From positions 144,380 through 208,379 of the forward strand of contig JAWKQE010000005.1 in assembly GCA_041390305.1 (NCBI GenBank): a stretch of DNA of 64,000 nucleotides. Reading direction: 5' to 3'. This DNA is from Candidatus Eiseniibacteriota bacterium. GTDB taxonomy: Bacteria > Eisenbacteria > RBG-16-71-46 > CAIMUX01. The notes beneath the pieces are model-generated. The model did not search any database. It saw only the letters and a program-made list of their open reading frames with translations, and was not told the DNA's origin. Shown piece after piece: positions 1,516-32,778 of the stretch. Both the position numbers and the translations under genes were made by a program. The first letter of the stretch is position 1. Each line of letters opens with the position of its first letter.

Positions 1516-4011
1516 ATGAGACGCACCGCCTCCGCTTCCGCCTCCGCCTTCGTTCCCGCCTTCGTCACCGACCTCGGATCCGTCCTCGCTTTCGTCACCC
1601 TGCTGGCCGGGCTCGTGGGAACCGCGCACGCCGACCGTCCCTTCGGTCCGAACGTGGGAGGAATGCTCGTTCTCCACGCAAGCACGTCGACCGAGTACAC
1701 CGCGGACGACGACTACTGCGGTCTCTCCGGACTCACGGATTGCGCAAACGCCGTCGTGCGCTCGGACCAGGCGGAACCCGTCGTGATCCACGCGCTGGCC
1801 GCGTTCTCGCCAGAGCAAGGCTCCCGACTCCAGGCATTGGTGTTTGGGATCGACTACGACGCCAGTGTCGCGCTCGAGAACTGGAAGGTCTGCGGCGACT
1901 TCGAACTCCCGCAGGACCAATGGCCCGAGCCCGGAACGGGGGTCGCGGTCACATGGGCCGATGCGCAGACCGACGAACTCGTCGAAGTCTATTGGTTCGC
2001 GGCCTACTCGGCGTACGAACGACCTGGGCACCTGAACCTCGGACCTCACCCAACGCAGGGCGCATTCTTCGCCGACGATTCCGTCCCGGCCTATCTGGAC
2101 CCGATCGTCGCGTTCGGCTCCTTCGGCTTCTACACCGACGGTTTCGTCGCCTGTCCACTGCAGGAGGGAACCTGCTGTTTCGCCGACGGAAGCTGCCAGG
2201 TGCTCTCGCTCGTGGCATGCGAGGAATCAGACGGAACCTACACGAGCTCCGATCCCAGCTGCGATCCGAACCCTTGCCCAGAGCCGGGCCAGGGTGCGTG
2301 CTGCCTCGTGCTGGGAACGTGCGAGTTCCTCTCGGAAGTGGCTTGCACGATCCGAGACGGGAGTTTCCTCGGGCTCGGCGTCGTCTGTGCGCCGAATCCC
2401 TGTCCCGCTCCTTGTGAGCCGTTCCGCTTGGCCGGGCGGCCGAGCACGACACACCGCGCGCCACGAGTCGATCCGTTCTCCTCCGGCTCGTCCCGACGCC
2501 CACGCGTCGGCCCGAACCGGGGCGGCACGCTCGTCCTCCATCTGGACAGCGAGTTCGTCTACTCCGGAAGCGGCGTCCCCGCTGAGTGTGACTTCGGCAG
2601 CGTCGAGACGTGTCGTGACATCGTCGCTCGTGTCGACCAGGAAGATCCCGTGCTCCTCTACGCCGTCGCACTCTTCCCGGAAGGTTCGGAGCCGCGAGTC
2701 GTAGGCCTGACCTTCGGCATCGACTTCCCGGATTGCGTCCAGCTCCTGGAGTGGGAGACGTGTGGCGACTTCGAGGTCCCGAACAGCGATTGGCCCTCGC
2801 CGGGATCGGGAACCGCCGTCACGTGGTCGACCCCACAAGCGGGCACCGCGATCCCGGTCTACGGGTTCGTGGCGTCCGGCTACGCGGCGGAGCCGGGCGA
2901 GTTCGCGCTCGCGCCGCACCCGACTCACGGAGCTCTCTTCGCGGACGACACGGTCCCCGCGATCCTGGACCCGGTGGCGGAGCTCGGCAGCTTCGGATTC
3001 TTCCGAAGCGGGATCGTTCCCTGTCCGCAGCCACAGGACCCGATCGGCGCGTGCTGTCTCCAGGATGGCACCTGCGAGATTCTTACCGATCCCGCCTGCG
3101 CCGCGGCCGGTGGAGAGTTCGTCGGCGTGAACGTCTCGTGCAATCCGAGCCCGTGCGATCCGCCTGTCGATGGGGCATGTTGCTTCGATGACGGCAGCTG
3201 CCGGGCCCTCGACGAGGAGGAGTGCGCGGCACAAGGCGGGTACTTCCTTGGAGACGCCATCCCCTGCGACCCGAACCCGTGTCCCTCTCCCGAACCGTGC
3301 CCGAACTGGCTCTCGTTCGAGGCCCGAATCGAGCTTCGTCGGCAGGCCATCGAAGCCCGGGAACGCTCGGACGTGCCTCACGCCGCCGAGACGGGCCGCC
3401 GGCAGGGGGCAACCGCCCGCCCGGAGACATCGGGACCGTGTGGAACGCTCTACCTCAACGCGGATGGGACGTACGAGAACGCCTACGCCTGGCAGTACGG
3501 CGGGGTCACGCCGCCCAACTACGGGGCGTTCGCCGAGCGGTACTCCACGACGGACGTGAGACCGTGTGCAATCGTCCTCGACTTGGTCGGAGTCGGCAAC
3601 CAACTCCAGCAGACGATGGATCTCTACGCCTGGGACGCTGCGGACGGCCTTCCGGGCCTGGTCCTCGGAGTCCGAACCGGCGTCGATCCAGGATCCATCG
3701 GGATCTGGCCCGACGTCAGTCGCCACGCCTTCGACTTCGTGAGCGACTGCACGGACGAAACGTTCGTCGGCTATTGGGGGAACTGGCCGGATGCGACTGC
3801 CGGCTGGTACGTCGGAGCGGACCTCGACGGGTTCGGCGGCTGCCCCGTCACCCTCGTCGCGCCCGGAATCGGCTACCCGACTGGATGGCACAACGTCTCG
3901 ATCGTCTGGGGCCCGACCCAGGCGATCGGGATCGGTGGCGAGTTCGTCAAGTGCGGCGCGAGTCCGGTCCGTAGGTCGAGCTGGGGTGAGGTGAAAGCCC
4001 TGTTCCGCTAA
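1516..4011 (+). CDS. Giant secreted Cys-rich-repeat protein, paralog 1 (signal peptide, two ~190-aa 'A' modules, 4 six-Cys ~40-aa repeats, conserved C-terminal domain ending SSWGEVKALFR)
   Basis: Start chosen at the internal ATG 1516 with GGAGG SD (conserved GGTCATGAGACGC start context in all three paralogs). Signal peptide MRRTASASASAFVPAFVTDLGSVLAFVTLLAGLVGTAHA. Repeats GxCC..G.C...C..GG...C.PNPCP. Paralogous to 4296..6650 and 8681..11902. Confidence 0.85.
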   Translation: MRRTASASASAFVPAFVTDLGSVLAFVTLLAGLVGTAHADRPFGPNVGGMLVLHASTSTEYTADDDYCGLSGLTDCANAVVRSDQAEPVVIHALAAFSPEQGSRLQALVFGIDYDASVALENWKVCGDFELPQDQWPEPGTGVAVTWADAQTDELVEVYWFAAYSAYERPGHLNLGPHPTQGAFFADDSVPAYLDPIVAFGSFGFYTDGFVACPLQEGTCCFADGSCQVLSLVACEESDGTYTSSDPSCDPNPCPEPGQGACCLVLGTCEFLSEVACTIRDGSFLGLGVVCAPNPCPAPCEPFRLAGRPSTTHRAPRVDPFSSGSSRRPRVGPNRGGTLVLHLDSEFVYSGSGVPAECDFGSVETCRDIVARVDQEDPVLLYAVALFPEGSEPRVVGLTFGIDFPDCVQLLEWETCGDFEVPNSDWPSPGSGTAVTWSTPQAGTAIPVYGFVASGYAAEPGEFALAPHPTHGALFADDTVPAILDPVAELGSFGFFRSGIVPCPQPQDPIGACCLQDGTCEILTDPACAAAGGEFVGVNVSCNPSPCDPPVDGACCFDDGSCRALDEEECAAQGGYFLGDAIPCDPNPCPSPEPCPNWLSFEARIELRRQAIEARERSDVPHAAETGRRQGATARPETSGPCGTLYLNADGTYENAYAWQYGGVTPPNYGAFAERYSTTDVRPCAIVLDLVGVGNQLQQTMDLYAWDAADGLPGLVLGVRTGVDPGSIGIWPDVSRHAFDFVSDCTDETFVGYWGNWPDATAGWYVGADLDGFGGCPVTLVAPGIGYPTGWHNVSIVWGPTQAIGIGGEFVKCGASPVRRSSWGEVKALFR

Positions 4012-4295
4012 CCGCCGGCTCGATGGCCCTGGGACGCCCGGGATTCTGAGCCCGAATCCACCTCCGGCCGAACCCGGGGCCTGGAACGTCTGCACCGGAC
4101 TGTAAGGCAGCACCAACGGGAGGGTCGCTCGTGGTCCTCCAACCCCAAGCGCAACCGAGTGCGCCCGAGTACATCTTCCTGTGACTTCGGAAACTACATA
4201 CGTCCTTTCACAGTCGCCTCGTCGGTCCGCGGCCGGATTGTGATACCCTCGGCAAGCATCATCCATCCGTAGCCGCCTCTCCGAGGAGGGCCGTC

Positions 4296-6650
4296 ATGAG
4301 ACGCTGCCGATCCGGCTCCGCCTTCGCCTCCGCCTTCGCTTCCGCCTACGTCCCGAAACTCGGCGTTCCCCTTTCGATCGCCCTCGCCGCCGCGGTCGGA
4401 GTCGGCGCCCTGACGACGACCGGACTCGCCGCCGGCGGAGAGGTCAGGCCCGGCGCGGGCACGGGCGAAGGCGCCTGCTGCCTTGCGCTCGGATCGTGTC
4501 AGCTCCTCCCGGAAGCGGACTGCGATGTCGCAGGCGGCAGCTTTCTCGGTTCCGGAATCGAGTGCTCTCCGAATCCGTGTCCGCAGCCTTGCGAGCCGTT
4601 CGACTTGGCCGGGCGTCCCAGCACGACCCATCCGGCACCACCATTCGATCCGTTCCGAAGGGGAGCGTCGGACGGCGAACAGTTCGGACCGAACCGCGGC
4701 GGCACGCTCGTGCTCCATCTCGACCCGGACTTCGTCTATTCAGGCGGTGGCCTTCCCGACTGCGAGAGCGCAGGCCTCCAGTCATGCGGTGACGTCGTCG
4801 CACGGGCGGATGTCGAGGGACCCGTGCTGATCTACGCCCTGGCTCTCTTTCCCGAGGGCGCATCGCCACGCCTGACGGGAGTGACCTTCGGAATCGACTT
4901 CCCGAGCTGTGTGCAACTCCTCGAGTGGTCGACCTGCGCCGATTTCGAGATCGCGGATCCCGATTGGCCGACCCCTGGATCGGGAACCGCCGTCGCCTGG
5001 ACGACTCCACAGACGACCCTCGCGGTGCCTGTCTATCAGTTCGCCGCCTCGGGGTACGCTGCCGAGCCCGGAGAACTCGCGATCACTCCGCACCAGGATC
5101 AAGGCACTTGGTTCGCGGACGACAGCGTCCCCGCGATCCTCGATCCAATCGAAGGGCTCGGGAGCTTTGGATTCTTCCGAAGCGGCGTGGTTCCTTGTCC
5201 TCATGTCGGGGCCTGCTGCTTCCGCGACGGGACCTGCCGCGTAGTCACCGCCTCCGATTGCGATGCGGTCGGCGGAGAGTCGTTCGAGCTCGACATGTCC
5301 TGTTCTCCGAATCCCTGTCCGCAGCCGGCGCTGGGTGCCTGCTGTCTCGGAGAGGGAGCCTGCTCCGTGTTGACGTTCGACCAGTGCACCGCGAGCGGGG
5401 GCAGTTACGAGGGAGACGACACGGTGTGCAGCCCGAACCCCTGCCCACAACTCGGAGCCTGCTGCCTCTACGGCGGAAGCTGCATCATCGCAATGGAAGC
5501 GGACTGCGACGGCACGTTCCAAGGGGATGACACGAGTTGCGACCCCAACCCGTGTCCGATCTGGGGGGCTTGCTGCTTCCCGAGCGGAAGCTGCAGCTTC
5601 ACCACCTACTGGACCTGCGGATACTACGATGGAACGTTCCAGGGGCAAGGAACCGAGTGCAGCCCCAACCCGTGTCCACAACCGACAGGCGCGTGCTGCA
5701 TCGGCGAGACCTGTCAGGTCCTCTTGAGATTGGATTGCACCGCCGCCGGTGGCGAGTGGCTTGGTGCGGACTATCCATGTGACCCGAACCCGTGCCTCGA
5801 CCCCGCAGGCGCCTGCTGCTTCGCCGACGGCTCGTGTCTGTTCATCACGGAGTCGGATTGCGAGGCGCAGTTCGGACGGTACTTGTTGGACGCCTACCCG
5901 TGTGACCCGAACCCATGTCCTGTGGGCGGTGGAGACTGCGGATTCCATCTCTCATACGAAAGCCGAGTGGATCTCCGCCGTCAGGTACTCGATGCGCGCC
6001 GGCGCACCGACGTCCTCCCCGCCGTGGAAACCGGCCGCGGGGTGGGTTCCACGCTGGAATCGGGAACGGCGGGGTCCTGCGGATGGATCAAGTTCAACGC
6101 GGACCGAACGTACGAGAACTCCTACGCATGGCAGTACGGAGGCGTCGTGCCGCCGATGTATGGGGCGTTCGTGGAGATCTACGACTCCTATCGGGAGACG
6201 CCGTGCGCGATCGTCCTCGACCTGACTCAGACGGGAGGCGATGCCGGCCAGACGCTGGACCTCTACGCCTGGAGCATTGTCGCGGGTCTGCCGGGGCAAG
6301 TGCTCGGGATCCGAACTGGAGTCGATCCTGGCCCAATCGCGACCTGGCCGTCCGTCAGCGAGCACGTTCTGGAGTTCTCGAGCGACTGCGCCGATTCGAT
6401 GTTCCTCGGCTTCTGGGGAAACTGGCCGGGTGGACCCAGCGGATGGTTCGTGGGCGCCGACCTCGATGGTTTCGGTGGCTGCCCGATGACCAACATAGCT
6501 CCGGGCATCGGCTATCCGACGGGCTGGCAGAACGTGTCGATCGTCTGGGGCCCGACCCAAGCGATCGGAATCGGCGGGGAGTTCATCGAATGCGGCCCGG
6601 TTCCGGTCCAGGAATCGAGTTGGGGCAAGGTGAAAGCGCTCTTCCGGTAG
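4296..6650 (+). CDS. Giant secreted Cys-rich-repeat protein, paralog 2 (one 'A' module, 7 Cys-rich repeats, C-terminal domain ending SSWGKVKALFR)
   Basis: GAGGAGGG SD before the ATG. N-terminus MRRCRSGSAFASAFASAY... followed by a hydrophobic core. Shares the PCPQPCEPFDLAGRPST linker, the A module and the ~300-aa C-terminal domain with paralogs 1 and 3. Confidence 0.85.
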   Translation: MRRCRSGSAFASAFASAYVPKLGVPLSIALAAAVGVGALTTTGLAAGGEVRPGAGTGEGACCLALGSCQLLPEADCDVAGGSFLGSGIECSPNPCPQPCEPFDLAGRPSTTHPAPPFDPFRRGASDGEQFGPNRGGTLVLHLDPDFVYSGGGLPDCESAGLQSCGDVVARADVEGPVLIYALALFPEGASPRLTGVTFGIDFPSCVQLLEWSTCADFEIADPDWPTPGSGTAVAWTTPQTTLAVPVYQFAASGYAAEPGELAITPHQDQGTWFADDSVPAILDPIEGLGSFGFFRSGVVPCPHVGACCFRDGTCRVVTASDCDAVGGESFELDMSCSPNPCPQPALGACCLGEGACSVLTFDQCTASGGSYEGDDTVCSPNPCPQLGACCLYGGSCIIAMEADCDGTFQGDDTSCDPNPCPIWGACCFPSGSCSFTTYWTCGYYDGTFQGQGTECSPNPCPQPTGACCIGETCQVLLRLDCTAAGGEWLGADYPCDPNPCLDPAGACCFADGSCLFITESDCEAQFGRYLLDAYPCDPNPCPVGGGDCGFHLSYESRVDLRRQVLDARRRTDVLPAVETGRGVGSTLESGTAGSCGWIKFNADRTYENSYAWQYGGVVPPMYGAFVEIYDSYRETPCAIVLDLTQTGGDAGQTLDLYAWSIVAGLPGQVLGIRTGVDPGPIATWPSVSEHVLEFSSDCADSMFLGFWGNWPGGPSGWFVGADLDGFGGCPMTNIAPGIGYPTGWQNVSIVWGPTQAIGIGGEFIECGPVPVQESSWGKVKALFR

Positions 6651-6872
6651 GGCACGGGATCCGGCACCCGCGGGGTGGTGGGCTCCCAGGGCGTGAAACG
6701 GATGGGCGCAGGCAGGGCTGCGCAGAACGGCCAATCCTGCTCCCATCGCAGTCACGACGAATTCGCGGACCTATCGCGCCGAGCGCCGATGAGTTCCGGC
6801 CGCCACACCAGTCCAACGGGTAGTTGGTGGGCTCTCGCCCACGATCCACCGTCAGCTACTCAGGAGGACCCC

Positions 6873-7313
6873 TTGTCCAGCGTCAGCACATACCTCAACT
6901 TCAACGGCAACACCGCAGAGGCGTTCGATTTCTACAAGTCGGTTTTCGGAACGGAGTTCGCCGGCCCCATGATGCGCATGTCGGACCTTCCCCCGATGGA
7001 AGGCATGCCGCCGGTCGCCGAAGCCGACAAGAACATGGTCATGCACGTGGCGCTCCCCATCCTGGGCGGCCACATGCTCATGGGCACCGACACGAGCGAG
7101 AGCTGCGGGGGTCGGATTGCCAACTTCGGCAACAACGTCCACATCAGTCTCCAGCCGGATACCCGCCAGGAGACCGAGCGCCTCTTCTCGGCCCTCGGCG
7201 ATGGAGGCACGGTCACCATGCCGCTCGCGGACATGTTCTGGGGGGACTACTTCGGTTCCCTGACCGACAGGTTCGGCGTCCACTGGATGTTCAACTGCGG
7301 CGAGAAGAAGTGA
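6873..7313 (+). CDS. VOC (glyoxalase/PhnB-like) family protein
   Basis: TTG start with AGGAGG SD. Motif STYLNFNGNTAEAFDFYKSVFG...MFWGDYFGSLTDRFGVHWMF is typical of PhnB-like / 3-demethylubiquinone-9 methyltransferase-like VOC proteins. Confidence 0.7.
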   Translation: MSSVSTYLNFNGNTAEAFDFYKSVFGTEFAGPMMRMSDLPPMEGMPPVAEADKNMVMHVALPILGGHMLMGTDTSESCGGRIANFGNNVHISLQPDTRQETERLFSALGDGGTVTMPLADMFWGDYFGSLTDRFGVHWMFNCGEKK

Positions 7314-7442
7314 TCCCGTAGCGGAGTCTGCGTTGCGGGCGCGGACGGGTCGATCCGTGGGCGGTCCGTTCGCGATCCGCTGGCGCTCCGGGATGCGACT
7401 TCCCGGGCCGAACCGAGCTCGGCCCCCGGCGCGTTCGTGCTC

Positions 7443-7485
7443 GGATCGTAGGAGCCGTGGGCGGCAGGTCCGCCCGCGGCTCTTC
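7443..7485 (+). terminator. Possible rho-independent terminator (GC hairpin + CTCTTCCCTTTC) in the convergent intergenic region
   Basis: GCCGTGGGCGGCAGGTCCGCCCGCGGC hairpin followed by a T-rich tract, between the convergent VOC and PP2C genes. Confidence 0.25.
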
Positions 7486-7489
7486 CCTT

Positions 7490-8557: not shown

Positions 8558-8680
8558 CCCCGACTTTCGAAACGGTGATGGCCGCTCGGCCCTCCTTCCG
8601 TGAGCAGCAGCGGTCCGGGTGCTAACATTGAAGACGTTCTCGCGCACCTGCCCCCAAACCGCTACCTGGGAGGATCGGTC

Positions 8681-11600
8681 ATGAGACGCTCCACTCCCGC
8701 CTTCGCCTCCAACTTCGCTTCTACGTTCGTGTCCCTCACCTTCGTCATCCTGCTCTGTGCCGGACTCGCCTCCCCACCGGACGTCCTCGGCTGGGGTGGA
8801 CCGAACGAAGGAGGGACCTTGATCCTCCACGCCGACACGGGGACGGTGTACACGGAGGACGGTGAGTACTGCGGCCTTTCCGGACTCGCCGACTGCGGCA
8901 GTGCCGAGGTCCGGGTCGAACAGGCCGAGCCGGTCGTCGCACACGTCCTCGCCGCTTTCTTCCCCGGCTCGGGCCCGCGCCTTTCCGGCCTCGTCTTCGG
9001 CATCGACTATCCGGCGAACATCGTTCTACTCGGCCACGGGGCGTGCGGCGATTTCGAACTCCCGCAGGACGACTGGCCCGCGTCTGGAAGTGGAACCGCT
9101 GTGACCTTCGCCGAGGCCCAGACCGACGATCTCGTCGAGGTCTACTGGTTCGCGGCCTACTCCGAGTACGCGCAACCGGGTCGCCTGGAACTGGGTGCCC
9201 ATCCGACCCAGGGTGGGCTGTTCGCCGACGACTCCATCCCAGGCTACCTCGATCCGATCGCCGGCTTCGGCGCGCTCGGCTTCTCCACCGACGGGACTCT
9301 CGTCTGCCCGGCCTCCCCCGGCGCCTGCTGCTTTGGCGACGGTAGCTGCGAACTCCTCCGTCAGGATCCATGCGAGGTTCTGGAACACGGCACCTGGTAC
9401 CCGGACGTCACGTGCGATCCGAACCCGTGCCCTCCACCTCAGTACGGTGCGTGCTGCTTCGAGAGCGGAAACTGTCAGTTCACACTCGAAGAAGCCTGCG
9501 GAACGGCGGGCGGAACATGGTTCGTGGACGTTCCCTGTGATCCCAACCCCTGTCCACGCCCACCCGAGGGTGCGTGCTGCTACGACAACGGTAGCTGCGT
9601 CGTCCGCACGGCCTACGAGTGCGAGGACACCTACGGCACGTACCAGGGCGACGAGACGTCGTGCGACCCGAACCAGTGTCCACAACCGGAAGGTGCGTGC
9701 TGCTTCCCGAGCGGAGAGTGTGAAGTCCTCACCCCGGACGAGTGTGACGGCGCCGGCGGCGGCTACCAGGGCAACGGCACGCTCTGCGAACCGAACCCGT
9801 GCACGGTAGAGACCGAAGGCGCGTGCTGCCTGACCCTCGGATCGTGCGAGTTCCTTCCGGAGTCGGTGTGCGGTACGGAAGGCGGCGCGTTCCTCGGCGT
9901 CGGAACTCTCTGTTCCCCGAATCCGTGTCCACAGCCGTGCGAACCGTTCGATCTGGCCGGACGCCCGAGCACCAGCCTTCCGCGACCAGGCGTCGATCCG
10001 TTCCGGACCGGCACCCGGCGTGACGATCAGATCGGTCCGAACGCAGGAGGCGTTCTCGTCCTCCATCTCGGCCCTGCCCTCGCCTACTCGGAGGACGGAT
10101 TCCGCACGGACTGTGACCTGGGCGGCGGCATCGATGGATGCGAGGACATCATCGCCCGCACAGACCAGGAGGAACCGGTCCTCGTCTACGCGGTCGCACT
10201 CTTCCCGACCACCTCGGCACCCCGCCTCCTCGGGCTCACGTTCGGGATCGACTTCCCCGACTGTGTGCAGCTCCTGGAATGGGAGTCGTGCGGAGACTTC
10301 GAGATCGCGGACGACGACTGGCCGTCGCCCGGGTCTGGAACCGCGATGACTTGGACGGCGCCACAGAGGGACTTCGCCGTTCCGGTCTACAGGTTCGTCG
10401 CGTCGGGACTCGCGGCGGAACCGGGTGAACTCGCACTCGCCCCTCATCCGACGCAGGGCGCGGTCTTCGCGGACGACAGCGTCCCCTCGATCCTCGACCC
10501 GATCGCCTCGCTCGGGAGCTTCGGCTTCTTCCGCGACGGAGTCGTCCCGTGTCCGCAACCGCAGGAAGCCATCGGCGCGTGCTGCTTCGACGACGGCACC
10601 TGCCGCATCCTCACCATCCCGGGATGCAGCGACGCGGGCGGGGATTTCTTCGGCGTCAATGTCGCGTGCACCCCCAACCCATGTCCGCAACCGCCCGAGG
10701 GTGCGTGCTGCCATGCGGACGGAGTCTGCAGAGTCCTGACGCTCAGCGACTGCACATCGAGCGGCGGTGGCTACCTCGGAAACGATACGACGTGCGATCC
10801 CAACCCCTGTCCACAACCGGGCGCGTGCTGCTTCCCGAGCGGCAACTGCTCGATCCTCCAGGAGTCCGACTGCGGCGTCCACGGCGGAACCTTCCAGGGC
10901 GACAACACGACCTGCTCCCCCAATCCCTGTCCGCAGCCGACCGGAGCCTGCTGCATCGGCGAGACGTGCGAAGTCCTGACCGCGGGCGACTGCTCGAGTT
11001 CGGGCGGCTCCTGGTTCGGTGCCGACTATCCATGCGACCCGAACCCATGCCTCGAAGGCGTCGGCGCGTGCTGCTTCTCCGACGGCTCCTGCCGCTACCT
11101 CAGCGAGTCCGAGTGCGCAGACGAAGGCGGAAGCTATCTGGCCGATCAGGTCCCGTGTGACCCGAACCCCTGTCCTACCGGTGGAGAGGGATGCCCGGGC
11201 TGGATGCCGTTCGAGACCCGGATGGAGCTCCGGAGGCAGGGAATCGAGGCACGGGCACACTCCGATGTGCCGTACGCCACGGAGACTGGACGCGCGTCCG
11301 GAAGGACGAGCGGGCTCGGGACGACGGGAAGCTGCGGAACGCTCTACTTCAACGCCGATGGCACCTACGAGAACGGGTACGCCTGGCAGTACGGCGGCGT
11401 CGAGCCTCCGATGTACGGCGCATTCTCGGAGTGGTACTCCGCGGCGAGTCTGAAGGTATGCGCGGTCGTACTCGACCTCACGACGACCGGCGAACCTGCG
11501 GCGACCATGGACCTCTACGTCTGGGGCAACGACCATGGCTATCCCGGCGTCGTCCTCGGACTCCGGACCGGTGTCGACCCGGGCGCGATCGCGTTCTGGC

Positions 11601-11902
11601 CATCGGTGAGTCGTCACTCCTTCGCGATCTACGCCGACTGCGCCGACGAACACTTCGTCGGATACTGGGGAAACTGGCCGGGCAGTTACCCCAGCTGGTA
11701 TGTCGGCGCCGACCTGGACGGCTTCGGCGGGTGTCCACTCACGAACATCGCGCCCGGAATCGGCTACCCGACCGGATGGCAGAACGTGTCGGTGGTCTGG
11801 GGGCCGACGCAGGCCATCGGCATCGGCGCGGAGTTCGAGGAGTGCGGCACGATCCCCGTACAGGAGTCGAGCTGGGGGAAGGTGAAAGCGCTCTTCCGCT
11901 AG
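8681..11902 (+). CDS. Giant secreted Cys-rich-repeat protein, paralog 3 (two 'A' modules, 10 Cys-rich repeats, C-terminal domain ending SSWGKVKALFR)
   Basis: Internal ATG 8681 with GGGAGG SD and the same GGTCATGAGACGC context. N-terminus MRRSTPAFASNFASTFVSLTFVILLCAGLASP. Architecture collinear with paralog 1 but with more repeats. Confidence 0.85.
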   Translation: MRRSTPAFASNFASTFVSLTFVILLCAGLASPPDVLGWGGPNEGGTLILHADTGTVYTEDGEYCGLSGLADCGSAEVRVEQAEPVVAHVLAAFFPGSGPRLSGLVFGIDYPANIVLLGHGACGDFELPQDDWPASGSGTAVTFAEAQTDDLVEVYWFAAYSEYAQPGRLELGAHPTQGGLFADDSIPGYLDPIAGFGALGFSTDGTLVCPASPGACCFGDGSCELLRQDPCEVLEHGTWYPDVTCDPNPCPPPQYGACCFESGNCQFTLEEACGTAGGTWFVDVPCDPNPCPRPPEGACCYDNGSCVVRTAYECEDTYGTYQGDETSCDPNQCPQPEGACCFPSGECEVLTPDECDGAGGGYQGNGTLCEPNPCTVETEGACCLTLGSCEFLPESVCGTEGGAFLGVGTLCSPNPCPQPCEPFDLAGRPSTSLPRPGVDPFRTGTRRDDQIGPNAGGVLVLHLGPALAYSEDGFRTDCDLGGGIDGCEDIIARTDQEEPVLVYAVALFPTTSAPRLLGLTFGIDFPDCVQLLEWESCGDFEIADDDWPSPGSGTAMTWTAPQRDFAVPVYRFVASGLAAEPGELALAPHPTQGAVFADDSVPSILDPIASLGSFGFFRDGVVPCPQPQEAIGACCFDDGTCRILTIPGCSDAGGDFFGVNVACTPNPCPQPPEGACCHADGVCRVLTLSDCTSSGGGYLGNDTTCDPNPCPQPGACCFPSGNCSILQESDCGVHGGTFQGDNTTCSPNPCPQPTGACCIGETCEVLTAGDCSSSGGSWFGADYPCDPNPCLEGVGACCFSDGSCRYLSESECADEGGSYLADQVPCDPNPCPTGGEGCPGWMPFETRMELRRQGIEARAHSDVPYATETGRASGRTSGLGTTGSCGTLYFNADGTYENGYAWQYGGVEPPMYGAFSEWYSAASLKVCAVVLDLTTTGEPAATMDLYVWGNDHGYPGVVLGLRTGVDPGAIAFWPSVSRHSFAIYADCADEHFVGYWGNWPGSYPSWYVGADLDGFGGCPLTNIAPGIGYPTGWQNVSVVWGPTQAIGIGAEFEECGTIPVQESSWGKVKALFR

Positions 11903-11978
11903 GGGCGCAGATCACGACTCATTGCCGAACGTCTCGCCGCGCACCTCCGGGCGGAGGATTGGTGGGACGTTCGGAATC

Positions 11979-12008
11979 TCTATGAACCCCGCCTCCGGAG
12001 TTCATAGA
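11979..12008 (+). terminator. Hairpin (9-bp stem TCTATGAAC/GTTCATAGA) downstream of paralog 3; possible terminator
   Basis: Inverted repeat read directly from the sequence. A second small hairpin CCTCCGggcGGAGG lies at 11944-11958. Only a weak T-tract follows. Confidence 0.3.
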
Positions 12009-12199
12009 AACTCTGAACTCGGGCCACACCGACGGTTGGAACCGCTTCGAAACCCTCGCGCCGTCCGAACCTGACGTAGGCAACGGGCCCTGGCGACTCT
12101 ACCTTCATGGAGCCAGTTGGGTCAGATTCGAAAGATGGACGGCGTCGACGGAGTGCAGCCCTCCGCCGACGCCGCGCTATCGAGATCGGGGGGGGAATC

Positions 12200-13820: not shown

Positions 13821-14984
13821 TCAGCGCAGCCGGACCACTCGGGAATCGGCGCTTCCGTCCGCGGTCGCGACACGAACGTAGTACACGCCGTCCGCAACGC
13901 TCCTCCCCATAGCGTCCGCGCCGTCCCACTCGAGGACGACATCGCCCGTCGCAGAACTCCCGGAGAGCGTACGGAGCAGACGCCCGGCGGCGTCACAGAT
14001 CGAGACGACCGCACTCCCCGTCACGGACGAGAGCTCGACCCGCGTCTTCTCGCGAAACGGGTTCGGCACGAGCGAGACTCGACCGGACCAGGGCTGGGCC
14101 GCTCCCTCCTTCACGTCCGCGGGATCGCCCAGGAGAACGCGACGCACGAGATTCTGCGACTGGAACCAGAGCGTCCTTCCGTCCTTCGAGAGTGCGAGGC
14201 CGTTCGGAGAGTCGATGAGTGCGGACTCAGCGGGCCCGTCCGTCGTTCCGGGCACACCGGTTCCCGCCAACGTGGTGTAGGTGCCGTCGACGGTCGAGAC
14301 GCGATAGATCTGGTGCGTGTCGAGCCCGGCCACGTAGAGGAAGCCGCTCCGGTAGTCGATGTACCCGGTCTTCGTTCCCGGGAGAGTCACGAGCACGGAT
14401 TCGTTCCCCGCAGGATCCACCTTCGTGATCGTGGGCGTGAGGAAGCTCGCGACGTAGACGTTCCCCGCCTCGTCCAGAGCGATCCCGTCGGGCGCTACGA
14501 TCGTCGATCCGTCCGCCACGACCGTTCGGTCACCGGAGACGGTATCGATCCGGATGAGCTGTCCCAGGTTGTAGCTCGCGGCGTAGAGCGTCTGCTCGTC
14601 CGGCGTGAACACGAGTCCGGTCGGCGTCACGATTCCGGTCGCGAACACCGAGATCGTGCCGTCGGCCGCGATGCGGTGGATGTGGTTCGCATTGAAGCAG
14701 GAGACGTAGTAGTCGCCGTTCGCGGCCACCGCTCCCCCGAGCGGAAACTGGAAGCCCGATCCGATCTCGGTGAGCGTCCCGTCGAGGTCGAGACGAAAGA
14801 CCAGATCTCCGGCCGGGTGACTCGGAAGGAACAGATTCTCGTTCGGCCCTACGGAGATGTCCTCGAACCGTGCGGGCATCTCGGCGAACGTCTCGACGGT
14901 GGCCGCACGGGTTGGAGTGGAAGTGAAGAGCGAGGCCAGCCCGAGAACCGGGACAAGGCGCACGGCACGACGACCGACATGCAT
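13821..14984 (-). CDS. NHL/SMP-30-like beta-propeller protein with FlgD-like/T9SS-type C-terminal sorting domain
   Basis: Internal ATG 14984 with GGAGG SD. Signal peptide MHVGRRAVRLVPVLGLASLFTSTPTRA. Repeated YV(A/S) propeller blades. C-terminal ...GVYYVRVATADGSADSRVVRLR. Confidence 0.65.
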   Translation of the reverse strand: MHVGRRAVRLVPVLGLASLFTSTPTRAATVETFAEMPARFEDISVGPNENLFLPSHPAGDLVFRLDLDGTLTEIGSGFQFPLGGAVAANGDYYVSCFNANHIHRIAADGTISVFATGIVTPTGLVFTPDEQTLYAASYNLGQLIRIDTVSGDRTVVADGSTIVAPDGIALDEAGNVYVASFLTPTITKVDPAGNESVLVTLPGTKTGYIDYRSGFLYVAGLDTHQIYRVSTVDGTYTTLAGTGVPGTTDGPAESALIDSPNGLALSKDGRTLWFQSQNLVRRVLLGDPADVKEGAAQPWSGRVSLVPNPFREKTRVELSSVTGSAVVSICDAAGRLLRTLSGSSATGDVVLEWDGADAMGRSVADGVYYVRVATADGSADSRVVRLR

Positions 14985-15101
14985 GGTTCGACCTCCGATC
15001 ACCCGGATCGAACCCTGAGCCCCGACGCCCCGCGTGAGGTGCGTCGTGCGCGTGAGTCTCTCCGGCGACCCAATGGGTGGGTCCACCCCGGCAGGACCAC
15101 G

Positions 15102-16280
15102 CTAGCGGGGCGGGCGGCGCACCGGCTTTGGAGATCGTTCGAATTCGGCGGCGCACGCCCGCGTCAGGGCACTGAGCAGCCGGACGGAGTCGTCATCGAC
15201 GGCGCGCTGGGAAACGCGCGACGGAGGCTCGTCGAACCACTCGCGGAAGGACGCGCTGAAGTGGCTACCATCCGAGAAACCGAGCCCGAGGGCAAGGTCG
15301 GTAAGGCTTCCTCGGTACTCGGGAAGCCGGTCGTAGGCCGTCCGCAGGCGGAGCTCCCGTACGAACTCGTGGACCGTCTGCCCCGTCATCCGGCGAAAGA
15401 CTACACAGAAGTGGGCCGGAGCCACGCCGACGGCGCGGGCGATCTCGGCGAGCCGGAGCGGCCGCGAGAGGTGCGCCCCGATGTACTCCTTCGCCTCCTC
15501 CACGACCTCCCGATGATACCGCGTCGTCGAGGCCTTGCTCGGCCGCGTCGTCGAGGCCTTGCTCGGCCGCGTCGTCGAGGCCTTGCTCGGCCGCGTCGTC
15601 GAGGCCTTGCTCGGCCTCGTCGTGTGGAGGCCTTGATACGCCGTCGCGAGCAGGTGACGGAGCAGCAGGACACCGGTCTCTTCTACGACGAGCGGGTCGG
15701 GCTCGTCGGCCGAGGCCGCATAGTCGAGGAGGAGGCGATGGATCCGGAACGCCGGTGTGTCGAGCGCAATGCCGACGGCGGGAAACGGAGCCGCCTCACG
15801 GTCCGACGCTGCCGGATCCCAAGCCGACGCTACCTCTCTCACGAGCGTCGGATCGAAGGCGAGGAAGTCGTTGGCCAGGTCCGCGCGGTACCGAGGATCC
15901 CGACGGAAGGGCGTGCCCGGATTGATCAGCAGTGCCCCCGCGACCGAGGCGAAGAGCCGCTCTCCCGGCTCGAGGAGGTCGATGACGTACGAACGCCGGG
16001 GGAAGGAGAGCGTGGCCCAGGACGCCGTGCGCGCATCGCTGCCCCAGAGCGGAGACCAGTGCGCCGTCTCGACGACGCCCAGGCGCACCAGTGGAGTCGT
16101 GCACAGTGTTTCTTGGACGACGCCGTCGCAGCCGGGGGGAAGGGCTTCGGTCCAGGCTGAGGTGTCGGCGTGCGCGCTGGTACGGGGGAGATCATATGTC
16201 TGCCCGTAGCCTTTGACGCGAGTGCCAGCGCGAGGTCGGCGACGCGCGGGACGTGCGGGATTCGGAGCGCCATCAGGCAC
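15102..16280 (-). CDS. AraC-family transcriptional regulator containing an in-frame (TTRPSKAS)x4 tandem repeat; start uncertain
   Basis: C-terminal HTH_AraC (LAEIARAVGVAPAHFCVVFRRMTGQTVHEFVRELRLRTAYDRL...FSDGSHFSASFREWF). A 24-bp DNA repeat x4 at 15523-15618 encodes the linker. Confidence 0.7.
   Translation of the reverse strand: MPDGAPNPARPARRRPRAGTRVKGYGQTYDLPRTSAHADTSAWTEALPPGCDGVVQETLCTTPLVRLGVVETAHWSPLWGSDARTASWATLSFPRRSYVIDLLEPGERLFASVAGALLINPGTPFRRDPRYRADLANDFLAFDPTLVREVASAWDPAASDREAAPFPAVGIALDTPAFRIHRLLLDYAASADEPDPLVVEETGVLLLRHLLATAYQGLHTTRPSKASTTRPSKASTTRPSKASTTRPSKASTTRYHREVVEEAKEYIGAHLSRPLRLAEIARAVGVAPAHFCVVFRRMTGQTVHEFVRELRLRTAYDRLPEYRGSLTDLALGLGFSDGSHFSASFREWFDEPPSRVSQRAVDDDSVRLLSALTRACAAEFERSPKPVRRPPR
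15523..15642. repeat. 24-bp direct tandem repeat x4 (+ degenerate 5th) GTCGTCGAGGCCTTGCTCGGCCGC inside the AraC regulator CDS
   Basis: Seen directly in the sequence. Units 1-3 are perfect, unit 4 has one mismatch. In frame, encoding TTRPSKAS repeats. Confidence 0.95.
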
Positions 16281-17189: not shown

Positions 17190-17590
17190 TCCGAGGTGCG
17201 CCACGCGGGGGGAAATCCAGCAAACGTCGTGTCCCAAGTGCGCCATGCGGCGGGACGTCCGGCGCGCACCATATCCCAGGTGCGCCATGCCGCGGGACGT
17301 CCGGCGCGCACTACATCCCAAGTGCGTAGAACGTCCCGACAATCTGCGCGCGCCGTATCCCGACCGCGCGCGGCCTCCCGCGCTCGAGCGTGCTCCGTAT
17401 CCCAAGGACGACATGCCTCCCGTACTTTCGCGCGCGGCGGATCCGACGTGCGCGAAGCGGCGGGAAACTCCGCGGGAACAAGGTCCCACCTGCGACTTGC
17501 GGCGGGAAACCCGGCGCGCCGATTGGACCACCCGGGATGTGCGGCGGGACAGCTCTCCGGTCGCTCAGCGCACCTTGGACATGGGGAGGG
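17190..17590. repeat. Array of about 9-10 degenerate 42-43 bp direct tandem repeats (core GTCCCARGTGCGCCATGCSGCGGGACGTCCGGCGCGCAC)
   Basis: Units recognisable at about 17195, 17232, 17275, 17318, 17361, 17402, 17445, 17488 and 17530. No unique spacers, so not a CRISPR array. Adjacent, progressively decaying copies. Confidence 0.8.
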
Positions 17591-18456: not shown

Positions 18457-18470
18457 GCGGGACAGGTCTC

Positions 18471-22066: not shown

Positions 22067-22096
22067 CTCTCCCCTGCGAAAGGAAAGGACCGCTTC

Positions 22097-23280: not shown

Positions 23281-23298
23281 GGCTGTTCCCGACGCGTC

Positions 23299-29887: not shown

Positions 29888-30014
29888 GCGGGGACTCTAG
29901 CTGCTCGGGTGACCGCGATCCTCCCCAGATTCGCCTTGGGATGAGGCCCGAGTCCGACCGACGTGGCATACTCACTACCATCCACTCAGGGGCCACAAAG
30001 AAGAGGAATCGACC

Positions 30015-30383
30015 ATGGAACTCGGAGCATTCTCGGTCAGCCTGGCCGTCAAGGACTTGGAAGCGTCGCGTACCTTCTACGCAGCATTCGGATTCGAGGT
30101 GGTGGGCGGGGACGCCGCGCAGAACTGGCTCATCCTCCGAAACGGAAACCACACGATCGGTCTGTTCCAGGGCATGTTCGAGCAGAACATCCTCACCTTC
30201 AATCCGGGCTGGAACGCACAGGCGGAGCCGCTGGACTCCTTCACGGACGTCCGGGAGATCGCGAGGGACCTCGAGGCGAAGGGGATCACTCTCGTGCAGA
30301 AGAACCTCGACGGAACGGGGCCCGGCAGCCTCGTCGTCCTCGACCCGGATGGGAACCCGGTCCTGATCGACCAGCACGTGTAG
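30015..30383 (+). CDS. VOC/glyoxalase-family protein
   Basis: Strong SD (AAGAGGAA). 122 aa with a glyoxalase/bleomycin-resistance-like beta-alpha-beta-beta-beta pattern ([17 protein letters not shown]...GFEVV). Confidence 0.7.
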
Positions 30384-30512
30384 CAGACTCGTTCGGGGCC
30401 ATGCAGATCGACAGGGACTCCCGGCCGCGGACCGTGATACTCTCTCCCCCTCGGTGAGTCCCCCCTCTCCTGGTAGTTCCCTCGTGCCCTGATCTCCAGC
30501 CAGGAGGCACTC

Positions 30513-31145
30513 ATGAACCTGAAACCGGCCTTCGCATCCGTTCACCGTTCGTTACCCACACTCACCGCCGCCATCGCCGTGCCCATCGCCCTTCTCGGAT
30601 TGGTCCAATCCTCGGCGATCGCCGACTGGAGCATCCCTGATCCAGCCCTCTGCTCGGTCTCACCGTGCGACGAGCTCGACGGCCTGGTTCTCACTCCAGA
30701 CAGCCCTCATCCGCAACCTGCGAGCCGGGTCGAAGTGGTGGTCAGGAACGACGGCAACTCGCCGATTCCGCATGCGTCTGTGGCAGTGGAGATAGTGAGC
30801 CCCAATCTCTTGTGCCCAACCGCGATACTCACGGAGCATGCCGACCACGACGGCCATGTATCCCTGGTCTTGGCGGGGGGTGGTTGCATCTCGGACGTCA
30901 GTCTGGCCACGGTCATCAAAGCGAACGGCATCACGATCCGCCACTACCGGAACGTGAAGAGCCCGGACTTCGACGGCAGTGGCGGAGATCTCAAGGTCGA
31001 CATCGCCGATCTGGTCGCGTTCTCGGGCGAGTTTCTCGGCACGTCGGCTCCGGGTTGTCACGACTATGACAACTCCGGCACGACGGATCTCGGAGACCTC
31101 ATCATCTTCGCGCCGACGTTCACGGACGCCAGCCACTGCCCGTAG
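30513..31145 (+). CDS. Small secreted protein with two C-terminal dockerin/EF-hand-like Ca-binding repeats, tandem paralog 1 of 3
   Basis: AGGAGG SD. Signal peptide MNLKPAFASVHRSLPTLTAAIAVPIALLGL. Motifs DFDGSGGDLKVDIADLVAF and DYDNSGTTDLGDLIIF. Ends in HCP. Confidence 0.75.
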   Translation: MNLKPAFASVHRSLPTLTAAIAVPIALLGLVQSSAIADWSIPDPALCSVSPCDELDGLVLTPDSPHPQPASRVEVVVRNDGNSPIPHASVAVEIVSPNLLCPTAILTEHADHDGHVSLVLAGGGCISDVSLATVIKANGITIRHYRNVKSPDFDGSGGDLKVDIADLVAFSGEFLGTSAPGCHDYDNSGTTDLGDLIIFAPTFTDASHCP

Positions 31146-31319
31146 CCGAGGACGGCAATTCTCGTGCGGGATCGGTTGGAACTTGTCTGCCGAAGAGGCT
31201 GAGCGGAACACTCCGGGTCGAAAGTGCTTTCCGCGCGTCCCGTCTGATATGCTCTCCATTGGTAGGTCCCCCTCTCGTGGAAGCCACCCAGCGTCCTGAT
31301 CTCCAGCCAGGAGGCACTG

Positions 31320-32000
31320 ATGAACCTGAAACCAGCCTTCGCATCCGCAAGAGTCTCGCTTCCCGCTCTCCTCATCACCCTGACCTCGACCCTTGCTCTT
31401 CTTGGATCGGCCCCGTCGGCTCGCGCAGACAACCTCGTGGACGGAGTGAGCATCGTTCCCGCAGGTTCGCCGGTATTGACGACCAACATCCCGGATCCAG
31501 CCAGCTCCTCGGTCACTCCGTGTGATGAGCTGGGCGGGGTCGTCCTGTCACCCAACGTCCCGAGTCCGCTCACGGCGACGCAGATCCAGATCGTGGTCCG
31601 GAACGTCGCAATGGCCCCGATCATCGACGCTGCGATCGAAGTTCGGTTTCACACTCCAGAACTCGTCTGCCCGAACGCCGTACTCACGGGGATGACGGAC
31701 TCCTCGGGACGCCTTTCGCTGACTCTGGCCGGTGGCGGTTGCCAAACGGACGAGTTCTTCGGCTGTGTCGTCAGGGCGAACGGCGTGACGATCCGGAACT
31801 TCAGCAACGTGAAGAGCCCGGACTTCGATGGTGCCGGTGGAGACCACAAGGTCGACATCGCCGACCTCGTCGCATTCTCGGCAGAGTTTCTCGGAACCTC
31901 GGCTCCGGACTGTCACGACTATGACAACACCGGTACGACGGACCTCGGGGATCTGATCATGTTCGCGCCGGCGTTCACGGACGCCAGCCACTGCCCGTAG
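31320..32000 (+). CDS. Small secreted dockerin-like-repeat protein, tandem paralog 2 of 3
   Basis: Near-identical upstream region and N-terminus (MNLKPAFASARVSLP...). Same two D-x-D-G/N-x-G...DL repeats. Ends in HCP. Confidence 0.75.
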   Translation: MNLKPAFASARVSLPALLITLTSTLALLGSAPSARADNLVDGVSIVPAGSPVLTTNIPDPASSSVTPCDELGGVVLSPNVPSPLTATQIQIVVRNVAMAPIIDAAIEVRFHTPELVCPNAVLTGMTDSSGRLSLTLAGGGCQTDEFFGCVVRANGVTIRNFSNVKSPDFDGAGGDHKVDIADLVAFSAEFLGTSAPDCHDYDNTGTTDLGDLIMFAPAFTDASHCP

Positions 32001-32153
32001 GCGGAGCGGCTTGCCGTTCCGCAGCCCCTGATCGCGATTCGTGACGGGGGTCAACACGGCTTGGCTTGTTCCGTGTGTGGGCATTCGCCATCCGGGCGGT
32101 GCCCGCTCCCCAAACCCCTTGGGCCCGGGTGCAGCCGGGCTCTTGGAGGAAGA

Positions 32154-32778
32154 CATGAAGTCCCACTCGTGGTTCCTGCCTCCGCGCTCTCGTTCTGTCG
32201 TCCCTGGAGTACTTCTGGTCGGAGTTCTCCTCGCACCGACCCTCGCGGCCGCCGATACGGCTCCCGCTCCGGAGCGCTGTACGGTCACACCGTGCGACGG
32301 CCTCGGCGGCGTCGTGCTGGTTCCCGACCTGCCGTCCGTCGCTCCGGCGTCCGACATCGTCGTCACCCTACGAAACGACGCCAACGCCCCGCTCCCCGCA
32401 TGGGAAGTGAGTTGCACCTTCACGGCAGGGACCCTGTGCCCGAGTGCGGTGCTGACGGGCGTGACCGATGCCAATGGCCAGGTCGCGTTCCGTTTCACCG
32501 GCGGGGGCTGTGGCCAGGGGGCCGTCGTGGCCCGCATCGACGCGTCGAACCTCACGCCCATCTACAACGTCCGCACCTTCGACGTCGTGAAGAGCCCGGA
32601 CTTCGACGGCGCGGGCGCAGACGGAGTCGTCAATGTCGCGGATCTCGTCGTCTTCTCGGGGGAGTTCCTCGGAACGTCCCCGGCAGATTGTCACGACTAC
32701 GACAACTCCGGCGCGACGGACCTGGGCGACCTCATCATCATGTCGCCCGCGTTCGTGAACCAGGTGCGATGCCAGTGA
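32154..32778 (+). CDS. Small secreted dockerin-like-repeat protein, tandem paralog 3 of 3 (more diverged)
   Basis: Internal ATG 32154 with GGAGGAAGAC SD. Signal peptide MKSHSWFLPPRSRSVVPGVLLVGVLLAPTLAAA. Motifs DFDGAGADGVVNVADLVVF and DYDNSGATDLGDLIIM. Confidence 0.7.

What the first reader, a model, noticed from the sequence alone, without database searches (positions are those of the whole stretch)
1516..32778. Common 'PAFAS' motif in the leader peptides of the giant Cys-rich proteins and the dockerin-like trio
The N-termini read MRRSTPAFASNFASTFVS..., MRRCRSGSAFASAFASAYVP... and MRRTASASASAFVPAFVT... for the giants, and MNLKPAFASVHRSLP... and MNLKPAFASARVSLP... for the small proteins. In every case the motif precedes the hydrophobic core. 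None of the other signal peptides in the window has it. This looks like an extended signal-peptide region motif (compare YSIRK or ESPR motifs) marking a subset of exported proteins. It links the two families functionally.
Basis: seen in the sequence. Interest (0 to 1): 0.55.

Follow-up and report, generated by a model that had tools for sequence, protein, structure and literature searches.

The report
Repeat-built extension of signal peptides
A short Ala-Phe-Ala-Ser string sits near the start of the export signals of five secreted proteins of an uncultured Eisenbacteria bacterium. It looks like a fast-evolving, repeat-derived spacer inherited by gene duplication rather than a dedicated sorting tag, so the finding is real but fairly ordinary.

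Summary
The strings are in the sequence as quoted, in five of the six named proteins. S3, the third 'dockerin-like' protein, lacks the motif, and giant G1 has AFVP/AFVT rather than AFAS. Each gene starts at an ATG 5-7 nt after a GGAGG ribosome-binding site. The motif lies in an uncharged spacer between the N-terminal basic residues and the hydrophobic core of an otherwise ordinary Sec signal peptide.

The window comes from a Candidatus Eisenbacteria MAG (locus tags R3E97_054xx).

- In the giants the motif is encoded by in-frame tandem DNA repeats of 6, 12 or 18 nt.
- A sister genome carries an expanded version, and two near-identical strains differ by exactly one 18-nt repeat unit.
- Most homologues of both families, including paralogues in the same genome, have plain leaders.
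- About 31 other signal peptides sampled from this genome and a sister genome lack the motif. One unrelated HEAT-repeat protein has an Ala/Phe-rich extended leader.
- No known N-terminal signal family matches (ESPR, YSIRK, Tat).
- The similarity between the two families is only 4-5 residues. By my rough estimate (0.04-0.15% per leader pair, about 150 pairs) a window like this would yield 0.06-0.2 such matches by chance.

Best reading: a lineage-restricted, slippage-prone n-region extension shared by descent within each tandem gene cluster. A dedicated sorting role is not excluded but has no support. Interest is low to moderate.

The parts
1516..1632 (+). G1 signal peptide (39 aa), MRRTASASASAFVPAFVTD|LGSVLAFVTLLAGLVGTAHA. 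The A/S/F spacer is at 1528-1569.
   Evidence: Translation. TRF finds 6-nt x4 and 18-nt x2 repeats at 1526-1561. Hydropathy profile.
4296..4436 (+). G2 signal peptide (about 47 aa), MRRCRSGSAFASAFASAYVPK|LGVPLSIALAAAVGVGALTTTGLAAG. The AFAS x2 spacer is at 4317-4355.
   Evidence: TRF finds a 12-nt unit CTCCGCCTTCGC x2.7 at 4316-4347. The 12-mer GCCTTCGCNTCC lies at 4320 and 4332.
8681..8770 (+). G3 signal peptide (about 30 aa), MRRSTPAFASNFASTFVS|LTFVILLCAGLA. The spacer is at 8696-8734.
   Evidence: The NCBI protein P0024 has the same start.
30513..30623 (+). S1 signal peptide (37 aa), MNLKPAFASVHRSLPTLTAAIAVPIALLGLVQSSAIA. PAFAS is at 30525-30539.
31320..31427 (+). S2 signal peptide (36 aa), MNLKPAFASARVSLPALLITLTSTLALLGSAPSARA. 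PAFAS is at 31332-31346.
   Evidence: Identical to NCBI protein P0002.
30488..30526 (+). Conserved translation-initiation block of S1, CCTGATCTCCAGCCAGGAGGCACTCATGAACCTGAAACC. The S2 copy is at 31295-31333.
   Evidence: S1 versus S2 identity is 93-97% in windows covering -23 to +22, against about 60% elsewhere. The block from -22 to +6 is also conserved in the metagenomic orthologue L136.
32155..32253 (+). S3 signal peptide, MKSHSWFLPPRSRSVVPGVLLVGVLLAPTLAAA. It is a member of the trio WITHOUT the motif (negative case).
   Evidence: Identical to NCBI protein P0018.

Best explanation
The AFAS-type strings are a lineage-restricted, repeat-derived extension of the n-region of ordinary Sec (signal peptidase I) signal peptides.

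Shown:
- In the giants the extension is built from in-frame tandem DNA units (GCC TTC GCC TCC and variants; periods 6, 12, 18 and 27 nt).
- These units expand and contract between relatives.
- The extension was inherited by the tandem paralogues G1-G3.
- S1 and S2 carry a single copy that they share through their own duplication, together with a nucleotide-conserved ribosome-binding and start region.

Inferred:
- The copy-number changes arise by replication slippage.
- The peptide is removed with the leader, so it is tolerated and drifts quickly.
- At most it acts as an uncharged, weakly hydrophobic spacer that tunes Sec targeting. It is not a tag read by a dedicated sorting machine.
- The 4-5-residue resemblance between the two families is convergence on the same short TTC-GCN unit, or coincidence. 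It is not evidence that the families work together.
For: 1. Tandem repeats in the leaders: TRF hits at 1526-1561 and 4311-4347 and in the sister-genome homologue L001 (12-nt x2.3 and 27-nt x2.2).
2. Copy number varies. The HK-STAS-EISE-1 homologue P0026 reads MRRLAPAFASAFASASGSESFASASGSASFASVFAAS. The syntenic orthologue L002 has a different unit, SAFLSA. It differs from the near-identical strain L137 (1 substitution across the ~280 aligned nt) by exactly one 18-nt unit. The S1 orthologue L136 carries an extra 6-nt TTT-GCT (FA) unit.
3. The motif is not family-wide. S3 and the three other R3E97 S paralogues (P0004, P0005, P0015) have plain leaders, as does the sister-genome S homologue P0007. 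About 110 of the 120 listed G homologues end in a short ...ALA|GPNAGGTL leader, including the 58%-identical P0025.
4. About 31 other signal peptides in the window and in L001, L002, L008 and L133 are plain. Two [ASTGP]F[AVL][ASTP] units within 12 aa occur 7 times in 275 kb of Eisenbacteria DNA, 6 of them in G-clade leaders.
5. Canonical Sec features are present: N-terminal K/R, hydrophobic core, and AHA / GLA / AIA / ARA before the mature part. The mature start GPNxGGTL aligns with the post-cleavage start of most homologues.
6. There is no match to ESPR, YSIRK, Tat or any Pfam/NCBIfam model. No protein among 1.84 billion representatives matches the leader profile at E<=0.001.
7. The chance rate of a shared n-region 5-mer is 0.04-0.15% per leader pair. 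With my estimate of about 150 leader pairs per window that gives 0.06-0.2 matches expected.
Against: - Within each lineage the n-region is better conserved than the hydrophobic core.
- In L136 the residues P, F, A and S are kept through synonymous codon changes (CCT, TTT, GCT against CCG, TTC, GCA) while the rest of the leader diverges. That hints at selection on the peptide.
- An unrelated HEAT-repeat protein next to P0026 (L001 13432-14631) has a 72-aa leader with 12 Phe in 59 residues and SAFAAF/SAFADPAF units.
- An S3-type homologue (P0019) has SFVPSF, which resembles G1's AFVPAF.
- The two lineages use the same codons, GCC TTC GCN TCC. The probability of that given the peptide AFAS is about 0.10.
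- I could not scan the whole source genome, so a wider set of motif-bearing leaders cannot be excluded.
Confidence: 0.55

Rival explanations
1. It is a genuine targeting motif of an extended signal peptide, working like ESPR or YSIRK. A short H1-like segment [AS]-F-[AV]-[SP] between two charged positions is recognised by a targeting or quality-control factor, or slows Sec translocation. It marks a subset of Eisenbacteria surface proteins, including the giants and the small dockerin-like proteins.
For: - The layout is N1-H1-N2-H2-C (compare PMC2805444).
- The n-region is more conserved than the hydrophobic core in both lineages.
- Synonymous changes leave P-x-F-A-S intact in L136.
- The pattern recurs in a third, unrelated family (HEAT-repeat protein) and in P0019.
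- The motif always sits at residues about 5-20.
- The motif-bearing n-regions are uncharged, whereas other long Eisenbacteria n-regions are Arg-rich.
Against: - It is absent from most paralogues and orthologues of the same families, including in the same genome.
- Unit sequence and copy number vary freely (AFAS, AFVP, SAFLSA, SGSESFAS), and near-identical strains differ by one unit.
- It is absent from about 31 other secreted proteins sampled.
- No hits at E<=0.001 in 1.84 billion representative proteins.
- No amphipathic signal: the hydrophobic moment is no higher than in shuffles.
- No conserved S-G gene neighbourhood.
Confidence: 0.2
2. The conserved object is the mRNA, not the peptide. Selection for a G-poor, C/U-rich, weakly structured translation-initiation region in a 66% G+C genome favours GCC/GCA/GCT, TTC, TCC and CCC codons just after the start. 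The Ala-Phe-Ser-Pro peptide is a by-product.
For: - S1 and S2 are 93-97% identical in DNA in windows covering -23 to +22, then drop to about 60%.
- The rare AGA codon at position 2 is conserved in G1, G2, G3 and L001.
- None of the 23 Ala codons in the first 25 codons of the motif genes is GCG. GCG makes up 30% in other gene starts and 48% in gene bodies.
- Third-position G is 10% in the motif genes against 23-27% in others.
- Folds of -30..+70 are no more stable than shuffles, and often less (z = 0 to +1.5).
Against: - Pyrimidine content and local folding energy of these starts are not outliers among other signal-peptide genes of the window.
- In L136 the nucleotide-conserved block ends at +6, and the motif codons differ synonymously.
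- The Ala codon counts are inflated by paralogy and by the repeats themselves.
Confidence: 0.15
3. The MRR leaders are Tat (twin-arginine) signals, lipoprotein signals or uncleaved signal anchors rather than Sec/SPase I signals.
For: All three giants and P0026 start with MRR. The uncharged stretch in G3 runs for 25 residues and contains a Cys (LLCAG).
Against: - There is no RRxFLK context and no hit to TAT_signal/TIGR01409.
- S1 and S2 have no RR.
- The cargo holds 43-77 cysteines, which is typical of proteins oxidised after Sec export (inference).
- ILLC is not a lipobox, because position -1 is Leu.
- AxA-type sites are followed by the conserved mature start GPNxGG.
Confidence: 0.03

Closest known systems
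Extended signal peptide region (ESPR, Pfam PF13018) of autotransporter and two-partner-secretion proteins
   Same: An extra N-terminal charged segment plus a short hydrophobic segment precede an otherwise normal Sec signal peptide (N1-H1-N2-H2-C; PMC2805444). It is found on a subset of large surface proteins.
   Different: There is no sequence similarity. The extension is 6-15 aa (about 35 aa in P0026) rather than about 25 conserved residues. It is made of variable tandem units. The cargo has no type V beta-barrel. It is also present on 210-aa proteins. Its distribution is limited to a few close relatives.
YSIRK-G/S signal peptide motif of Gram-positive surface proteins (Pfam PF04650, TIGR01168)
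   Same: A short motif near the start of the signal peptide that marks a subset of exported surface proteins.
   Different: There is no model match. The organism and envelope type differ. YSIRK is conserved across whole families and genera, whereas this motif is not conserved even among paralogues. The cargo has no LPXTG.
In-frame simple-sequence-repeat length polymorphism inside coding regions
   Same: Units are multiples of 3 nt, are detected by TRF, and copy number differs between close strains.
   Different: The repeats lie in the cleaved leader rather than the mature protein. They cannot switch the gene off, so this is not classical phase variation.
Planctomycete extracellular N-terminal motif (Pfam PF07595, recalled from memory)
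   Same: A lineage-specific N-terminal motif shared by otherwise unrelated predicted extracellular proteins of one bacterial group.
   Different: There is no model match at E<=0.1 on the full proteins, or at E<=10 on the leaders, within HMMER's speed filters. That motif is shared by many proteins per genome. Here only two or three gene clusters carry the string in the DNA I could sample.

Membership tests
Sec-type signal peptide cleaved by signal peptidase I | Basic residues at the N-terminus | tested here: met
   MRR (G1-G3) and MNLK (S1, S2).
Sec-type signal peptide cleaved by signal peptidase I | Hydrophobic core of about 10-20 residues | tested here: met
   The 9-residue Kyte-Doolittle mean peaks at 2.1-3.0 after the motif in all five leaders. 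This is a heuristic; SignalP was not available.
Sec-type signal peptide cleaved by signal peptidase I | Small residues at -3 and -1 of a cleavage site | tested here: met
   AHA|D (G1), GLA|S (G3), AIA|D (S1), ARA|D (S2). The mature start GPNxGGTL aligns with the start after ALA| in most homologues. Cleavage itself has not been shown.
ESPR (PF13018) | Match to the ESPR profile | tested here: not met
   No hit at E<=0.1 on the full proteins or at E<=10 on the leaders alone.
ESPR (PF13018) | Cargo is a type V secretion protein (autotransporter or TPS) | tested here: not met
   The giants and small proteins have no Pfam or NCBIfam domain of that kind.
ESPR (PF13018) | N1-H1-N2-H2-C layout with a total length of 40-50 aa or more | tested here: inconclusive
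   The layout is present in G1, G2, S1 and S2. Lengths are only 30-47 aa in the window and 62 aa in P0026.
YSIRK signal peptide (PF04650 / TIGR01168) | Match to the YSIRK profile | tested here: not met
   No hits.
Tat signal peptide (PF10518 / TIGR01409) | S/T-R-R-x-F-L-K consensus and profile match | tested here: not met
   RR is followed by STPAF, CRSGS or TASAS. No profile hit. S1 and S2 have no RR.
Lipoprotein signal peptide | Lipobox [LVI][ASTVI][GAS]C | tested here: not met
   The only Cys in a leader is in G3 (ILLC), with Leu at -1.
Coding tandem repeat with length polymorphism | Head-to-tail DNA units in multiples of 3 nt | tested here: met
   TRF at 1526-1561 (6 and 18 nt), 4311-4347 (6 and 12 nt), and L001 9885-9960 (12 and 27 nt). 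Not detected for the single PAFAS of S1 and S2.
Coding tandem repeat with length polymorphism | Copy number differs between close relatives | tested here: met
   L002 and L137 differ by one 18-nt unit and one substitution across the ~280 aligned nt. There are 2 AFAS units in G2 against several FAS-containing units (12-nt x2.3 and 27-nt x2.2 repeats) in P0026. L136 has an extra 6-nt FA unit.

The most novel reading that the evidence does not exclude
Eisenbacteria of this clade use a previously undescribed N-terminal tag to route a defined set of surface proteins to a particular export route or site. The tag is an uncharged [AS]-F-[AV]-[SP] segment, often repeated, placed between the initial basic residues and a second charged residue of the signal peptide. 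The cargo would include the Cys-rich giants, some dockerin-like small proteins and a HEAT-repeat protein. Repeat number would tune the effect.
Probability: 0.08. Interest if true: 0.6.

Novelty: new variant of a known kind. Interest (0 to 1): 0.25.

Why it matters
If the segment were a real sorting tag, it would be the first protein-targeting signal described for the uncultured phylum Eisenbacteria. It would also give a handle for predicting which of its many large surface proteins travel together.

As the evidence stands, it mainly shows that signal-peptide n-regions in this lineage can carry slippage-prone in-frame repeats that change length between strains. That is useful for gene-start annotation and for signal-peptide predictors. 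One example: NCBI annotates S1 as a 116-aa fragment that lacks the leader. It does not change how we think about secretion.

Tried and rejected
1. Leader-profile search of 5.8 billion proteins. It returned one junk hit and did not return the training proteins, which score 40-57 bits locally. The result is uninformative.
2. The same profile against 1.84 billion cluster representatives. There were no hits at E<=0.001. This argues only against a widespread conserved leader domain. It has low power for a 5-residue motif, and the window proteins are evidently not cluster representatives.
3. Metagenome DNA scan for GGAGG-N4-10-ATG-N6-30-GCCTTCGCNTCC. Of 120 matches, 65 were in frame. AFAS there lies mostly inside ordinary hydrophobic cores of assorted bacteria, and no Eisenbacteria G or S genes were hit. 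It does not test the hypothesis.
4. Fetching more of the source MAG. R3E97 proteins are not indexed, and the MAG is not a GTDB representative. Only about 80 kb of the sister genome could be sampled (L001, L002, L008, L133).
5. Amphipathic helix. Hydrophobic moments are no higher than in shuffles.
6. RNA hairpin or SD sequestration. The MFE folds of G1-G3 pair GGAGG with downstream CCUCC/CCUUC, but z-scores are 0 to +1.5, and S1 and S2 have GCAUCC instead.
7. General pyrimidine richness. This is shared by all signal-peptide coding regions in the window.
8. Conserved S-G gene neighbourhood. It is present in L133 but absent in L134 and L135.
9. Tat, lipobox, ESPR, YSIRK. No matches.
10. Literature. 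No paper in the library links Eisenbacteria with a signal-peptide motif.
Full report
**Source and genes.** The window has 66% G+C. It comes from a Candidatus Eisenbacteria MAG: the proteins are identical to NCBI entries R3E97_05475, 05480 and 05495 (the giants) and R3E97_05565 and 05570 (small proteins), on a 251,689-bp contig.
- The giants are G1 (1516-4011+, 831 aa), G2 (4296-6650+, 784 aa) and G3 (8681-11902+, 1073 aa). They contain 5-7% Cys and have no Pfam or NCBIfam match.
- The small proteins are S1 (30513-31145+), S2 (31320-32000+) and S3 (32155-32778+). They show weak Big_1 and GC-type-dockerin similarity.

**The observation.** The quoted N-termini are exact. Each ATG follows a strong GGAGG by 5-7 nt, so the starts are sound. 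In the six-frame translation PAFAS occurs three times (G3, S1, S2). AFAS occurs six times, five of them at these N-termini. At the DNA level GCCTTCGCNTCC occurs five times against 0.17 expected. It occurs nowhere else in the other Eisenbacteria loci fetched except the leader of one G homologue.

Two corrections are needed. S3 has no such motif (MKSHSWFLPPRSRS...). G1 has (AS)3-AFVP-AFVT rather than AFAS.

**Anatomy.** The segment is uncharged and only weakly hydrophobic (Kyte-Doolittle 0.5-1.4). It follows the initial basic residues (MRR or MNLK). In G1, G2, S1 and S2 it is followed by another charged residue (D19, K21, H11-R12, R11). Next come the true hydrophobic core (peaks 2.1-3.0) and an AxA-type site: AHA|D, GLA|S, AIA|D, ARA|D. 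In the G family the mature protein begins GPNxGGTL. In most homologues this directly follows a short ...ALA| leader. These are therefore ordinary Sec/SPase I signal peptides with an inserted spacer, laid out like the N1-H1-N2-H2-C pattern of long autotransporter signals (PMC2805444).

**Independence.** G1-G3 share GGAGGnnCGGTC ATG AGA CGC and the following CCGCCTTCGCCTCCGCCTTCGCTTCC at the DNA level. S1 and S2 are 93-97% identical in windows covering -23 to +22 and about 60% identical elsewhere. That leaves two lineages, not five observations.

Among 2,584-2,596 pairs of non-homologous Eisenbacteria leaders:
- 1.2% share a 5-mer within 35 aa;
- 0.04% share one within 12 aa;
- 0.15% share one within 15 aa.

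With my estimate of about 150 leader pairs in a window, that is roughly 0.06-0.2 such coincidences. The match is suggestive but not compelling. The identical codon choice (probability about 0.10 given AFAS) adds a little.

**Repeats.** TRF finds 6-, 12- and 18-nt tandem repeats exactly over the G1 and G2 spacers.
- The closest genome available, HK-STAS-EISE-1, has a 72%-identical homologue. Its leader is MRRLAPAFASAFASASGSESFASASGSASFASVFAAS..., with 12- and 27-nt repeats.
- The syntenic orthologue of G3 in that genome (L002, with the same two upstream genes) has a different repeated unit, SAFLSA.
- L002 differs from a near-identical metagenomic strain (L137) by one 18-nt unit and one substitution across the ~280 aligned nt.
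- The positional orthologue of S1 (L136, after the same 122-aa glyoxalase-like gene) reads MNRSPSFAFASR, with an extra 6-nt Phe-Ala unit.

The spacer is therefore a slippage-prone in-frame repeat tract.

**Distribution.**
- S family: only S1, S2 and P0003/P0006 carry the motif. P0013 and P0019 have related strings (SFAS, SFVPSF). S3, the three other R3E97 paralogues and the sister-genome homologue P0007 do not carry it.
- G family: only G1-G3, P0026 and the variant P0028/L002 carry it, among 120 listed homologues. P0025 is 58% identical and has a plain leader.
- About 31 other signal peptides in the window and in 80 kb of the sister genome are plain.
- The double unit occurs 7 times in 275 kb, 6 of them in G-clade leaders.
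- Long n-regions are common in this phylum (median 10 aa), but most are Arg-rich.
- One exception: a HEAT-repeat protein directly downstream of P0026 (L001 13432-14631) has a 72-aa leader with 12 Phe in 59 residues.

**Peptide or mRNA?** Two observations favour the peptide. In L136 the nucleotide-conserved block stops at +6, while P, F, A and S persist through synonymous changes. The n-region is also better conserved than the hydrophobic core.

Several observations favour the mRNA:
- GCG is absent from all 23 Ala codons in the first 25 codons of the motif genes, against 30% in other gene starts and 48% in gene bodies;
- third-position G is 10% against 23-27%;
- folds are no more stable than shuffles.

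Neither case is decisive. Pyrimidine content and folding energy are not outliers among other signal-peptide genes.

**Comparison with known signals.** There is no match to ESPR, YSIRK, Tat or any other Pfam or NCBIfam model, on the full proteins or on the leaders alone. The leader profile has no hit at E<=0.001 among 1.84 billion representative proteins. The word-indexed search of 5.8 billion proteins did not return the positive controls, so it says nothing.

**Functional link between the families.** S and G genes are close in L133 but not in L134 or L135. No independent support was found.

**Verdict.** The feature is real and is not a generic property of this organism's signal peptides. The evidence fits a fast-evolving, repeat-derived n-region extension inherited within two tandem gene clusters. 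Whether the similarity between the families is convergence or coincidence remains unresolved. A dedicated sorting role (about 0.2, or 0.08 for the full 'new tag' reading) needs a whole-proteome motif scan, which I could not run.

Noticed in passing
window 11855-11902 (G3 C-terminus), 3964-4011 (G1), 6603-6650 (G2), 61604-61651 (unrelated 253-aa protein): A modular C-terminal tag ...PVQxSSWG[KE][VI]KALFR*. The 253-aa secreted protein at 60890-61651 shares only its last 16 residues with G3. 76 of the 120 G-family hits carry WGx[IVL]Kxx[FY] in their last 25 aa. No Pfam or NCBIfam model covers it. It looks more like a real sorting signal than the N-terminal motif does.
   Followed up: partly
L001 13432-14631 (+), HK-STAS-EISE-1 contig JACKCR010000012: A HEAT-repeat protein directly downstream of the G homologue P0026. 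Its leader is 72 aa long, extremely Phe/Ala-rich (12 Phe in 59 residues; SAFAAFRSAFADPAFT...RFASFPFVSFP) and ends in ATA|DGG.
   Followed up: partly
window 30513-30797: NCBI annotates S1 (R3E97_05560, P0001) as a 116-aa protein starting at an internal GTG. The full 210-aa ORF, with a strong SD, a leader identical to S2 and a family-conserved N-terminal half, is intact in the window. The deposited start is probably wrong.
   Followed up: partly
window 30459-30473 and 31267-31280; L136 about 690-705: A conserved C-rich element, TCCCCC(C)TCTC[CG]TGG, lies about 40-55 nt upstream of the S1, S2 and L136 start codons. It is separate from the conserved SD/start block. It may be a promoter or a 5'-UTR element.
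   Followed up: no
window 13821-15086(-), 35434-37608(+), 38826-40628(-), 53448-55970(-), 61801-62973(-): Many neighbouring secreted proteins end in a FlgD-Ig/T9SS-like C-terminal strand (...YYVRVATADGSADSRVVRLR*...RTVRRVR*...SRVVILE*...VRKVLLR*...GTLMRIR*). This is a second kind of C-terminal ending, different from the WGxVKALFR tag. FlgD_ig Pfam hits were seen on similar genes in L133 and L135.
   Followed up: no
window 15519-15643, 17232-17326, 43062-43144: Other strong tandem repeats in the window: 24 nt x4.4 (98% matches), 42 nt x2.3, and 12 nt x6.9. They were not examined.
   Followed up: no
L136 743-1411 (P0006) versus P0003 and P0007: The N-terminal two-thirds of P0006 is identical to P0003 (S2-like). 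Its C-terminal 60 aa are identical to the KDA27 protein P0007. It is followed by the same SpoIIAA-like gene as P0007. This is either recombination between S paralogues or a chimeric assembly.
   Followed up: no
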